64,000 bases of DNA from Candidatus Hydrothermarchaeum profundi (lineage in GTDB: Archaea; Hydrothermarchaeota; Hydrothermarchaeia; Hydrothermarchaeales; Hydrothermarchaeaceae), in contig MTMF02000009.1 in NCBI GenBank assembly GCA_002011125.2, positions 547,095 to 611,094 of the forward strand. Reading direction: 5' to 3'. Made by a program: the position numbers and the translations under genes. The stretch's first letter is position 1. Each line of letters starts with the position of its first letter. This document shows, piece after piece, positions 23,706 to 30,853 of the stretch. The notes beneath the pieces were generated by a model. It worked only from the letters and a program-made list of their open reading frames with translations. It did no database searches and had not been told where the DNA came from.

Positions 23706-23766
23706 TGCCCTCAGCGCTCATAGGGTTCATCATATATTCAGATCGCCCATCATTCATCATTGGGCA
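23706..23766 (-). ncRNA. Box C/D sRNA (2'-O-methylation guide), sR-tMet-like
   Basis: Minus strand reads TGCCC A ATGATGA [ATGATGGGCGAT] CTGA ATAT ATGATGA [ACCCTATGAGCG] CTGA GGGCA: four perfect boxes, two 12-nt guides and a 5-bp terminal stem. Confidence 0.93.
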
Positions 23767-29538: not shown

Positions 29539-29847
29539 ATGAACATAGAACACTTTGACTCAATCGACTCCCATGAGTATTTGGTATGGGATGAAAATTA
29601 TTCTAGAATTATAGCTTCAGCCAGAATTAAAAAGATCAATGAGGGATTTGAGTTGAAGATTATAAATGTTGAAAGATGGTATAGGGGCGAAGGAGTAGGT
29701 TCAATGTTATTAAATAAAATAGTGGCTGACTTCTCCGACACTACTTTAATCGCGTGGGTATTTAGCTCTAGAGTAGAATGGTACCTGAAAAATGGATTTA
29801 AAGTAAAAGAAAGAGCAGGAAGGCTGGTTAAAGTAGAGATAGAATAG
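29539..29847 (+). CDS. GNAT family acetyltransferase
   Basis: VERWYRGEGVGSMLL, WYLKNGF. Confidence 0.8.
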   Translation: MNIEHFDSIDSHEYLVWDENYSRIIASARIKKINEGFELKIINVERWYRGEGVGSMLLNKIVADFSDTTLIAWVFSSRVEWYLKNGFKVKERAGRLVKVEIE

Positions 29848-29855
29848 ATGAATTT

Positions 29856-30059
29856 GGGTCTAGGAGGGGAAGAACATCGCTTGGTTTTATTTGCATACGC
29901 TTATTAGGCGAATGCAAACATTTTCCACACTTATTTCTTCCCGGCGAATCTCCCTGAAATGCGTCATAAGTTTTCACAAACTTTGACACACTTCCAAGAA
30001 TTCCGTCATTCCAAATCGAATATCTTTCGATATACGATTTGAAATCACCTAGATTCCCC
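29856..30059 (-). ncRNA. Unassigned structured RNA (closing stem plus three long hairpins)
   Basis: Stems TCTAGG/CCTAGA, 30009-30044 (GAAA loop), 29946-30003 (GUGA loop) and 29867-29942; G-U pairs work only on the minus strand. Confidence 0.7.
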
Positions 30060-30082
30060 TTATTCTTAGAGGGTACCTAATG

Positions 30083-30099
30083 GTATAAATAATTTTCCG
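30083..30099 (-). promoter_or_regulatory. BRE/TATA promoter for the structured RNA
   Basis: Minus strand CGGAAAATTATTTATA about 25 nt upstream of GGGG at 30059. Confidence 0.55.
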
Positions 30100-30112
30100 T
30101 AAAAGTAAAATT

Positions 30113-30853
30113 ATGAGACTCGGGAGCATTGAGGTAATAGAGCCTTACCCCGCTATATACATAAAAGAGTTGGAAGCTATTGTGATCTGTGATCTTCATC
30201 TTGGATATGAAGGAATAATGGCGGAGCAAGGGATCTTTATGCCTAAGGTTCAGTTTGAAAGAGAAATGGAAATTCTTTCTAAAATCGTTGATTATAAGTC
30301 TGCGTCCAATTTTATTATTGTAGGGGATGTGAAGCACGAATTTTCTGAAACAACATACCATGAATTCAGGGAGGTCAAGGACCTTTTTGAATATTTGAAA
30401 AACAATTTTGAGAGGATCGTCCTAGTAAAAGGGAATCATGATAATTATATTATTTATACTACGAGGAGGTATGGGGTAGAACTCTATGACGAGTTTCTTT
30501 TTAAAGATTTTCTATTTTTGCATGGTGATAAGCCCTTGAAAGAAACTAAAGGCAGGTATATAATAATGGGACATGAGCATCCAGCAATCGCTCTTTATGA
30601 TGAAATAGGGGCAAAGGAAAAACTTAAATGCTTTTTGTACGGGGAAGTGGAGGCAAGGAAATTTTTGGTAATGCCAGCTTTTTCTTATTTAGCCTTAGGC
30701 TCTGAGGTTAATACTATACCCCGAGAGGAGCTTCTTTCCCCAATACTCAAAGAATTGGAGATTGATGACTTTAGAGTAATAGCTATTAGTGAGGAAGCAG
30801 GAATAATGGATTTCGGCAGGTTAGGGGATATTAGGCCAGAAAAATTATTCTAA
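30113..30853 (+). CDS. Metallophosphoesterase (COG1407-like)
   Basis: DLHLG, GDVKH, GNHD, HGD, GHEHP, MPAF. Confidence 0.9.
   Translation: MRLGSIEVIEPYPAIYIKELEAIVICDLHLGYEGIMAEQGIFMPKVQFEREMEILSKIVDYKSASNFIIVGDVKHEFSETTYHEFREVKDLFEYLKNNFERIVLVKGNHDNYIIYTTRRYGVELYDEFLFKDFLFLHGDKPLKETKGRYIIMGHEHPAIALYDEIGAKEKLKCFLYGEVEARKFLVMPAFSYLALGSEVNTIPREELLSPILKELEIDDFRVIAISEEAGIMDFGRLGDIRPEKLF

What the first reader, a model, noticed from the sequence alone, without database searches (positions are those of the whole stretch)
29856..30059. Unassigned ~204-nt four-way-junction RNA with its own promoter
Seen: on the minus strand almost the whole intergenic region folds. The 5' GGG-GAA-UCUAGG pairs with the 3' CCUAGA-CCC. 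Hairpin A is UUUCAAAUCGUAUAUC-GAAA-GAUAUUCGAUUUGGAA. Hairpin B is GAAGUGUGUCA-AAGUUU-GUGA-AAACUU-A-UGACGCAUUUC. Hairpin C is GGGAAGAA...UGUUUGCAU..AUGCAAAUA...UUCUUCCC. Two loops are GNRA tetraloops, and the imperfect pairs are G-U on the minus strand but A-C on the plus strand, which points to selection on RNA structure. A BRE/TATA sits about 25 nt upstream. I do not see the hallmark motifs of RNase P, SRP, C/D, H/ACA or tRNA. Inference: an independently transcribed, possibly undescribed archaeal ncRNA, or a transposon-derived guide RNA or MITE.
Basis: partly seen in the sequence, partly recalled or inferred. Interest (0 to 1): 0.82.

Follow-up and report, generated by a model that had tools for sequence, protein, structure and literature searches.

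The report
Orphan archaeal four-way-junction RNA gene
A very strongly folding small RNA gene with a tRNA-type archaeal promoter, seen so far in one uncultured hydrothermal archaeon; it has the shape of, and may descend from, a conserved but undescribed RNA family of the same phylum, and its function is unknown.

Summary
Window 29856-30059 (minus strand) folds into P1 plus three long hairpins: -84.2 kcal/mol, z -8.2, against -64.4 on the plus strand. It has 9 G-U pairs and no A-C mismatch, which favours the minus strand. A BRE/TATA almost identical to this genome's tRNA-Phe and tRNA-Cys promoters lies 22 nt upstream and points to the minus strand. Rfam 15 gives no match. The element is single-copy, and RNase P, SRP and 5S RNAs lie elsewhere. 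There is no transposase and there are no dispersed copies, so MITE and guide-RNA readings fail. I found no sequence homologue in 37 genomes of the class (Hydrothermarchaeota by relatives' titles), in 151 genomes of another phylum, in metagenome loci, or at the syntenic site in the sister genus. A genome-wide fold scan found a second orphan with the same architecture. That one belongs to a covarying family (22 copies in 18 of 38 genomes) that Rfam lacks. Covariance models of the target and of this family hit each other weakly (21.5 and 14.9 bits, arms in register). Sequence-only profiles do not, and the family's invariant termini and UUCG loops are missing. Best reading: a real, lineage-restricted structured ncRNA gene, possibly a diverged paralogue. 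Expression and function are untested.

The parts
29856..30059 (-). Candidate 204-nt structured RNA (four-way junction: P1 plus hairpins A, B, C)
   Evidence: MFE -84.2, z -8.2. 9 G-U against 0 A-C. No Rfam match. Single copy.
30046..30058 (-). P1, 5' strand (RNA positions 2-14, AA bulge at 5-6)
   Evidence: structure; pair list
29856..29866 (-). P1, 3' strand (RNA positions 194-204)
   Evidence: structure
30008..30045 (-). Hairpin A: 16 pairs, one U-U mismatch, GAAA tetraloop
   Evidence: inverted repeat I1
29945..30005 (-). Hairpin B: 26 pairs, A-A and G-A mismatches, one bulged A, GUGA tetraloop; holds 6 of the 9 G-U pairs
29867..29942 (-). Hairpin C: 8-bp base, 4x4 and 4x3 internal loops, 9+3 bp tip, 7-nt loop CUAAUAA
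   Evidence: I3, I11
30082..30097 (-). BRE/TATA (GAAAATTATTTATACC) pointing to the minus strand, 22 nt upstream of the RNA 5' end; the same TATA lies about 22 nt upstream of the plus-strand ATG at 30113
   Evidence: 10.9 bits on the tRNA-promoter matrix. The best plus-orientation site scores 5.6 bits and is misplaced. The 12-mer core occurs 9 times in the genome, 2 of them before tRNA genes.
29842..29855 (-). 3' flank AAATTCATCTATTC: pyrimidine/U-rich, with no run of four or more T; overlaps the stop codon of the convergent GNAT gene
   Evidence: 11 of 14 identical, in register, to the 3' flank of one family copy (L172); empirical p 0.004, noticed post hoc.
29885..29892 (+). TTTTATTT on the plus strand, 38 nt after the GNAT stop and inside hairpin C: possible terminator of the GNAT transcript (inferred)
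   Evidence: I8. That oligo-T acts as an archaeal terminator is established knowledge, not tested here.
29539..29847 (+). GNAT acetyltransferase gene, convergent with the RNA
   Evidence: Pfam PF13508 E 1.4e-7. 51% identical orthologue next to DapF in the sister genus.
30113..30853 (+). Archaeal SbcD-related phosphoesterase gene (TIGR00024), divergent from the RNA; its start lies 53 nt from the RNA 5' end
   Evidence: Orthologues confirm the start codon.

Best explanation
Window 29856-30059 (minus strand) is a genuine, lineage-restricted gene for a stable, highly structured ~204-nt non-coding RNA. It would be transcribed from a strong tRNA-type BRE/TATA, which probably also fires weakly in the opposite direction to give a leaderless mRNA for the neighbouring phosphoesterase. 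It folds into a four-way junction of P1 plus three long hairpins. About three quarters of its bases are paired, and only two GNRA tetraloops, one 7-nt loop and two internal loops are exposed. It therefore most likely acts in trans as a folded particle (a protein-binding or scaffold RNA) and not by antisense pairing or as a cis leader. It is probably (about even odds within this reading) a fast-diverged, AT-rich paralogue, with expanded arms, of a conserved and so far undescribed four-way-junction RNA family of Hydrothermarchaeota. A canonical copy of that family lies elsewhere in the same genome. Shown: the fold, the strand bias, the promoter match, single copy, and no known family. Inferred: transcription, the transcript ends, paralogy and mode of action.
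For: Fold: z -8.2, 0 of 200 shuffles as good. The element is among the top 4 of 2709 intergenic windows genome-wide even when out of register.
Strand: 9 G-U pairs and no A-C mismatch. The minus strand is 20 kcal/mol more stable than the plus.
Promoter: 10.9 bits on the genome's own tRNA-promoter matrix (838 of 4.37 million sites reach this). The spacing is the same as for tRNA-Phe and tRNA-Cys. No comparable site exists in the plus orientation.
Not a known RNA: 0 Rfam matches at gathering score across the window, and only two chance-level matches at E>4 locally. RNase P, SRP and 5S RNAs lie elsewhere.
Not a repeat: one copy in the genome.
Not a leader: downstream on the minus strand lies the antisense of a real GNAT gene.
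Kinship:
- The target's own model R1, run without filters, puts its top 9 hits in 61 kb on family RNAs, on the right strand. The best is the same genome's copy at 21.5 bits (E 1.8e-4), the next the sister genus at 15.5 bits. All three arms are in register, and by my hand count 61 positions are identical.
- Control loci (the tRNA, 5S, RNase P and SRP loci) score at most 6.4 bits. The reverse strand of the same-genome copy scores 8.1 bits.
- The family model R3 scores the target 14.9 bits. That is the top hit in the 64-kb window; the next is 8.5 bits.
- The family genes have the same layout, with a BRE/TATA about 23 nt upstream.
Against: There is no expression evidence of any kind.
Covariation cannot be tested, because only one sequence is known.
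No homologue turned up by BLASTN or by the single-sequence model in 37 other genomes of the class, in 151 genomes of another phylum, or in 53 loci holding orthologues of the neighbouring gene. The same method did find 9 homologues of the second element.
The sister genus keeps the DapF-GNAT pair but has a convergent gene 8 nt beyond GNAT, which leaves no room for the RNA.
GC is 40.7%, the same as the genome (40.0%). RNase P and SRP RNAs of this organism are 57-60% GC.
No run of four or more T follows the 3' end, unlike all family copies.
Against kinship:
- Sequence-only profiles (nhmmer) of the family find nothing at the target, even when searched directly.
- The family's invariant termini (UGCG...CGCA) and UUCG-type loops are absent.
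- R3 gives 13.7-22.8 bits to reverse complements of true members, so 14.9 bits can come from architecture alone.
- R1 does not hit the second copies L172-L174.
The geometry, with a TATA shared with a head-to-tail gene and starts about 50 nt apart, is the one described for non-functional upstream antisense transcripts in Pyrococcus furiosus (PMC6640164, passages read).
Confidence: 0.5

Rival explanations
1. It is a by-product of a bidirectional promoter. The TATA belongs to the phosphoesterase gene, and TBP binds it in both orientations. The minus-strand transcript is then an upstream antisense RNA without a function of its own. The hairpins would have no function, or would merely stabilise the transcript.
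For: The RNA 5' end and the ATG at 30113 are 53 nt apart, with one TATA midway. The flanking genes are head-to-tail. This matches the roughly 50-bp geometry and BRE-TATA-BRE motif reported for P. furiosus, where such RNAs were judged mostly non-functional (PMC6640164, passages). The element is absent from relatives.
Against: Noise transcripts do not explain a fold at z -8.2 with 9 G-U and 0 A-C. The BRE is good on the RNA side (10.9 bits) and poor on the gene side, the reverse of what a gene-owned promoter predicts. The 265-nt spacer exists only here: in 11 of 16 orthologous loci an open frame runs to within about 50 nt of the gene start.
Confidence: 0.15
2. It is a cis-acting element of the GNAT/phosphoesterase locus. 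It could be a structured spacer that insulates or terminates the GNAT transcript, or a cis-antisense RNA whose transcription or pairing tunes the two flanking genes.
For: A TTTTATTT run on the plus strand lies inside hairpin C, 38 nt after the GNAT stop. The RNA 3' end abuts the GNAT stop codon and its 5' end shares the TATA with the phosphoesterase gene. The plus strand also folds well, z -6.8.
Against: All 9 wobble positions favour the minus strand. Archaeal termination uses oligo-T and does not need hairpins (established knowledge). A promoter of tRNA-gene strength suggests a product RNA. Relatives lack any such spacer.
Confidence: 0.15
3. It is an independent, recently arisen structured RNA gene, unrelated by descent to the conserved family. 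The shared P1-plus-three-hairpins shape is convergent.
For: There is no sequence-profile similarity. The family's invariant termini and loops are absent. Reverse complements of family members score as high against R3 as the target does.
Against: R1 scores are highest for the same genome's copy and then for the sister genus, and 13 bits above that copy's reverse strand. Promoter spacing is shared, and the 3' flank partly so.
Confidence: 0.15
4. It is a decayed mobile-element remnant: a MITE, a TnpB/IscB-type guide RNA, or a piece of an integrated element.
For: The P1 arms look like short terminal inverted repeats. The element sits at a synteny break between the DapF-GNAT block and the phosphoesterase-Lon-MtnA block. 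A 9-nt direct repeat AAAGTAAAA lies at 29800 and 30102.
Against: There is a single copy in the genome. No transposase, TnpB or IscB lies nearby. No match was found in phage or plasmid collections. The 9-mer is A-rich, is expected by chance in 550 nt, and includes part of the GNAT gene. Decay would give A-C as often as G-U mismatches, but 9 to 0 is observed.
Confidence: 0.04

Closest known systems
Undescribed Hydrothermarchaeota four-way-junction RNA family found here (same-genome copy at G000:C9:274888-275046, minus strand; not in Rfam 15)
   Same: P1 plus three hairpins in the same order. Hairpin 1 has the same length (37-38 nt). BRE/TATA lies 22-24 nt upstream. It is a stand-alone gene. Reciprocal covariance-model hits keep the arms in register.
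   Different: The family is 145-164 nt and 45-67% GC, with invariant UGCG...CGCA ends, UUCG-type tetraloops, an 18-bp P1 and an oligo-T flank. The target is 204 nt and 41% GC, with GGGG...CCC ends, GAAA and GUGA loops and a 10-bp P1. It carries 38- and 48-nt insertions at the tips of hairpins 2 and 3 and has no T-run. Sequence profiles show no similarity.
Upstream antisense transcripts from bidirectional archaeal TATA boxes (Pyrococcus furiosus; PMC6640164, passages read)
   Same: One TATA lies midway between two divergent starts about 50 nt apart, upstream of a gene that is head-to-tail with its neighbour.
   Different: Those transcripts were described as largely non-functional and were not reported as structured. 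Here the stronger BRE faces the RNA, and the RNA has an exceptional, strand-specific fold.
Orphan stable ncRNAs of AT-rich thermophilic archaea (HgcC/E/F/G, SscA; names recalled, not from a call)
   Same: Small stand-alone structured RNA genes of unknown function in archaea.
   Different: No Rfam family of any kind matches the element at E up to 10 beyond two chance hits. As I recall, those RNAs stand out by high GC; the target has genome-average GC.
tRNA
   Same: Four-way junction closed by a terminal stem. The promoter sequence and spacing are nearly identical to tRNA-Phe and tRNA-Cys of this genome.
   Different: The element is three times longer and its arms are 38-76 nt. ARAGORN finds no tRNA in the window and Rfam gives no tRNA match.

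Membership tests
Any Rfam 15 family (RNase P, SRP, tRNA, C/D, H/ACA, riboswitches, ribozymes, HEARO and other guide RNAs) | Covariance-model score at or above the family's gathering score | tested here: not met
   0 matches in the 64-kb window at gathering score. At E up to 10 in 29700-30250 there were only PyrD_leader at 17.3 bits (cut-off 47) and DUF805b at 10.2 bits.
   R3 aligns model positions 14-146 to window 29862-30050 (-) with all three hairpins in register. R1 aligns full length to the same-genome family copy.
   The target has GGGG...CCC. R3 aligns only locally and leaves out model positions 1-13 and 147-159.
   The target loops are GAAA, GUGA and CUAAUAA. The family has CUUCGG-like loops.
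   14.9 bits. That is the top of 64 kb, and controls score at most 7.6-8.5 bits. Accepted members score 40-156 bits, and reverse complements of members score 13.7-22.8 bits. In the reciprocal direction R1 gives 21.5 bits, E 5.5e-5 to 1.8e-4.
   nhmmer --max with the 22-sequence profile, and with a 5-sequence subfamily profile, gives no hit at the target, either genome-wide at E up to 100 or in a direct search.
   The promoter part is met. The 3' flank has no T-run. It shares 11 of 14 positions with one copy, L172 (p 0.004, post hoc), but R1 does not hit L172.
MITE | Many dispersed copies with terminal inverted repeats and target-site duplications | tested here: not met
   1 full copy. The other 10 matches are at most 27 nt, with E 0.72 or more. 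There is no convincing duplication.
Transposon-associated guide RNA (TnpB/IscB type) | Adjacent or overlapping TnpB, IscB or transposase gene | tested here: not met
   The neighbours are DapF, GNAT, an SbcD-related phosphoesterase, a Lon-like protease, MtnA-like, archease and RtcB.
Riboswitch or cis-regulatory leader | A regulated gene downstream on the same strand | tested here: not met
   Downstream on the minus strand lies the antisense of the GNAT gene, whose orthologue is confirmed.

The most novel reading that the evidence does not exclude
The target and the conserved family together define a new, phylum-specific class of cloverleaf-shaped, almost fully helical RNAs. These would form an abundant ribonucleoprotein or catalytic particle with a cellular role not yet described in archaea. 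The target would be a neo-functionalised paralogue that swapped UUCG for GNRA loops and grew two arms, gaining new tertiary or protein contacts.
Probability: 0.2. Interest if true: 0.75.

Novelty: new variant of a known kind. Interest (0 to 1): 0.55.

Why it matters
Few stable structured RNA classes are known in archaea beyond the universal ones, and none has been described for the uncultured Hydrothermarchaeota. The search listing showed only metabolic and ecological papers, and I did not read them. If the element is expressed, it is a clean case of a young or fast-evolving structured RNA gene, and it may show how such genes duplicate, drift in composition and grow arms. The larger result is a by-product: a covarying four-way-junction RNA family of about 155 nt, with 22 copies in 18 of 38 genomes of the class and no Rfam model. 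That family can be tested directly by metatranscriptomics, structure probing and pull-downs, and it gives the orphan a context.

Tried and rejected
Known RNAs. RNase P RNA, SRP RNA and 5S rRNA are each found elsewhere in the genome above cut-off. ARAGORN finds no tRNA in the window.

BLASTN in 40 relatives. It gave only matches of 15-42 nt at E 0.04 or more. Many clustered on query positions 103-144, which looked like a conserved core. On inspection, 14 of them lie in unrelated, mostly coding contexts, so I rejected them.

Synteny. Orthologues of the phosphoesterase gene in relatives and in metagenome loci carry no such element. The best metagenome relatives are only 64-67% identical in protein, so no close genome was available.

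Sequencing runs. No RNA holder was listed. Two DNA runs hold the stretch identically and may be its source. A third run holds a related strain, with 5-11 differing bases per laid contig piece, but its contigs laid here do not cover 29781-30078. It therefore gave no comparative information and supports no conclusion.

Phage and plasmid collections gave no match.

BHB splicing motif, K-turn, H/ACA and C/D boxes, the 11-nt GAAA receptor, and an anticodon-like reading of the 7-nt loop. I considered these by eye only and saw none in canonical form. They were not formally tested.

A GC-rich, strongly folding region at G000:C9:65850-66300 turned out to look like a broken HEAT-repeat coding region.

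Identity at the family's conserved columns did not discriminate. The target matched 15 of 22, and the reverse-complement controls matched 52-70%.

The literature search for a matching archaeal RNA class returned nothing relevant in its listing. Supplements are closed and I did not ask for them.

Full report
The sequence. A closing stem of ten pairs (AA bulge, one U-U mismatch) opens onto a four-way junction with linkers of 0, 2, 2 and 0 nt. Three arms leave it: hairpin A (38 nt, GAAA loop), hairpin B (61 nt, GUGA loop) and hairpin C (76 nt, two internal loops, 7-nt loop). The energy is -84.2 kcal/mol against -45.9 +/- 4.7 for 200 dinucleotide shuffles (z -8.2). The plus strand reaches -64.4 (z -6.8). 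Of the 77 pairs, 9 are G-U, and none of the six single mismatches is A-C. A palindrome decaying at the DNA level should give G-U and A-C equally on a given strand. Nine to none (about 0.004 two-sided, by my own binomial reckoning) points to selection on the minus-strand RNA. The fold is unchanged in a 313-nt context. I scanned 2709 windows of 200 nt from the 530 gaps left by ORFs of 90 or more codons in the whole genome. An out-of-register window over the element ranked 4th after correction for GC, among the rRNA and SRP RNA regions.

The setting. The element fills the spacer between a 102-aa GNAT gene (29539-29847, +) and an archaeal SbcD-related phosphoesterase gene (TIGR00024; 30113-30853, +). 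DapF, archease and RtcB lie on one side and a Lon-like protease and an MtnA-like gene on the other. No mobile-element gene is near. The genome holding the window (2.19 Mb, 19 contigs, 97.7% complete) has one copy of the element. Its RNase P RNA, SRP RNA and 5S rRNA lie elsewhere, as do the 45 tRNA genes called by ARAGORN. Titles of related records name Hydrothermarchaeota. The class holds 38 species genomes in the collection searched.

The promoter. I built a 16-column matrix from the 60 nt upstream of the 45 tRNA genes. It recovers a BRE-TATA of the form GAAAA-TTTAWAWA. The site at 30097-30082 on the minus strand scores 10.9 bits, a score reached by 838 of 4.37 million positions, and would rank about 12th among the tRNA promoters. 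It ends 22 nt before the 5' GGGG, against 23 nt for the near-identical tRNA-Phe and tRNA-Cys promoters. Its 12-mer core occurs nine times in the genome: twice before tRNAs, three times before ORFs that begin 39-47 nt from the start of the 12-mer, once here, and three times in unclear settings. In the plus orientation nothing comparable exists. The best site scores 5.6 bits and overlaps the ATG. Yet the same TATA lies about 22 nt upstream of the phosphoesterase ATG, whose position orthologues confirm. The two putative starts are 53 nt apart. This is the geometry shown in Pyrococcus furiosus for bidirectional transcription from one TATA box, where such upstream antisense RNAs were judged mostly non-functional (PMC6640164; abstract and passages read). 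Here the better BRE faces the RNA. A TTTTATTT run on the plus strand inside hairpin C (29885-29892) could end the GNAT transcript, so the phosphoesterase probably depends on this shared promoter (inference). The RNA's own 3' flank is U/C-rich but has no run of four T, and it overlaps the GNAT stop codon.

What it is not. Rfam 15 gives no match at gathering score anywhere in the window, and only two chance-level matches at E above 4 around the element. It is not a MITE, because it is single-copy and the one flanking 9-mer repeat is A-rich and at chance level. It is not a transposon guide RNA, because no such gene is near. It is not a leader, because the downstream minus-strand sequence is the antisense of a real GNAT gene. 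Phage and plasmid collections hold nothing similar.

Relatives. BLASTN in 40 relatives gave only short chance matches. A covariance model of the single sequence with its structure (R1) found nothing beyond itself. I ran it on the other 34 genomes of the order and 37 of the class, on 151 genomes of another phylum, on 53 loci around orthologues of the phosphoesterase gene from genomes and metagenomes, and, without filters, on six loci of the sister genus. In 11 of 16 orthologous loci an open frame runs to within about 50 nt of the phosphoesterase start, so the spacer itself is peculiar to this genome. The sister genus keeps the divergent DapF-GNAT pair (GNAT 51% identical), but there a convergent gene ends 8 nt beyond GNAT. 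The element therefore sits at a synteny break and is either young or evolving fast. No metagenome contig came from a close relative.

A second element, and a family. The top window of the genome-wide fold scan was another unannotated region, G000:C9:274888-275046 (minus strand). It lies between a Top6A gene and a BioY-like gene, has 57% GC, folds at -87 kcal/mol (z -9.0), and is again a long P1 closing three hairpins. Rfam does not know it, and BLASTN finds no relative. Its single-sequence model (R2) nevertheless found nine full-length homologues in eight other genomes of the class. This doubles as a sensitivity control for the method that failed on the target. A family model (R3, 10 sequences) finds 22 copies in 18 of 38 genomes, with four genomes holding two copies, and none in 151 genomes of another phylum. 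On the model-fitted alignment of 22 sequences, 55 of 62 pairs show changes on both sides, 90% of cells pair, and 0 of 500 shuffles reach the observed values. Sliding the partners drops pairing to 37-45%. An independent MAFFT/RNAalifold run used 17 of the 22 sequences; I left out four near-duplicates and one truncated copy. It recovers P1 and the three hairpins, with 30 of 38 pairs compensated. Every copy has a BRE/TATA 22-24 nt upstream of an invariant UGCG 5' end, and an oligo-T-rich flank after the CGCA 3' end. This is a real, conserved, undescribed RNA gene family.

Is the target related to it? The evidence for:
- R3 run without filters hits the target at 14.9 bits. The three hairpins are in register, with insertions of 38 and 48 nt at the tips of hairpins 2 and 3. 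The E-value is 0.0017 in 2 kb and 0.055 in the 64-kb window, where it is the top hit and the next scores 8.5 bits.
- Control loci holding tRNA, RNase P and part of the SRP RNA gene score at most 7.6 bits.
- In the reverse direction, R1 without filters over 61 kb of family loci puts its nine best hits on family RNAs, on the right strand. The order is phylogenetic: the same genome's copy scores 21.5 bits (E 1.8e-4) and the sister genus 15.5 bits.
- The alignment to the same-genome copy is full length. By my hand count of the printed match line, 61 positions are identical, concentrated at the junction-proximal parts of each arm. That copy's reverse strand scores only 8.1 bits, and the tRNA, 5S, RNase P and SRP loci at most 6.4 bits.

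The evidence against:
- nhmmer profiles of the family see nothing at the target, even in a direct search.
- The most conserved family features, the UGCG/CGCA termini and the UUCG-type loops, are missing.
- R3 gives 13.7-22.8 bits to reverse complements of true members, so a score near 15 bits can arise from shape alone.
- The one flank similarity I noticed (11 of 14 positions with copy L172; empirical p 0.004) is post hoc, and R1 does not hit L172 itself.

I put descent from the family at about even odds, given that the element is a real RNA gene.

How it probably works. What is shown is a strand-specific, exceptionally stable fold, a strong correctly placed promoter, and the absence of any cis target. 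About 154 of 204 nucleotides are paired. The exposed parts are two GNRA tetraloops, one 7-nt loop and two purine-rich internal loops in hairpin C. That anatomy fits a particle recognised by shape, such as a protein scaffold or a tertiary-folded RNA, far better than an antisense regulator. This is inference. Its genome-average GC (40.7%, against 57-60% for RNase P and SRP RNA) and the missing T-run argue that it is young, weakly constrained, or not an abundant stable RNA. Rivals are listed with their tests. The main ones are a functionless upstream antisense transcript of the shared promoter, and a cis-acting spacer of the GNAT/phosphoesterase locus.

Verdict. The element is an orphan candidate RNA gene known from one species and untested for expression. 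It is made more credible and more interesting by a conserved, covarying, undescribed family of the same architecture in the same phylum. All E-values from the session's models are rough, because the calibration is shortened.

Noticed in passing
Outside the window: G000:C9:274888-275046 (-) = L153:1501-1659 (-); homologues in L154-L174: A conserved, covarying four-way-junction RNA family of about 155 nt, absent from Rfam 15. It has 22 copies in 18 of 38 genomes of the class, and four genomes hold two. The ends are an invariant UGCG...CGCA, the loops are UUCG-type, a BRE/TATA lies 22-24 nt upstream, and an oligo-T flank follows. In 5 loci it is followed by a convergent BioY-like gene, and in 3 it is preceded by Top6A.
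   Followed up: yes
Upstream flanks of the family copies, L153-L174, about 41-50 nt before the RNA 5' end: Most copies share an AAGGTNGG-like word roughly 10 nt upstream of the BRE. It could be a regulator site. The target lacks it.
   Followed up: no
window 23709-23764 (-) (= L139:354-409): A candidate C/D-box sRNA. It matches the archaeal families sR41 (42.5 bits, cut-off 54) and sR3 (40.2 bits, cut-off 41) just below their gathering scores, so the gathering-score scan of the window missed it.
   Followed up: partly
Outside the window: G000:C9:1321583-1321652 (-): ARAGORN calls a tRNA-Pyl gene, preceded by a good BRE/TATA-like word. I did not check for pyl genes or in-frame TAG codons.
   Followed up: no
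window 29800-29808 and 30102-30110 (+): A direct 9-mer AAAGTAAAA brackets the end of the GNAT gene, the RNA and the promoter, 302 nt apart. It is A-rich and at chance level for 550 nt.
   Followed up: partly
Outside the window: G000:C9:65850-66300: A GC-rich (58%), strongly folding stretch without a long ORF. Its translation looks like HEAT/PBS-lyase repeats, so it may be a broken gene and not an RNA.
   Followed up: partly
Outside the window: G000:C9:516570-516689 (+) (= L143:221-340): A 120-nt Rfam tRNA match (43.5 bits), presumably an intron-containing tRNA gene, in one of the best-folding gaps.
   Followed up: no
L172:123-497 (a relative's locus): The second family copy of that genome lies about 1 kb from a cluster of three tRNA genes.
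   Followed up: no
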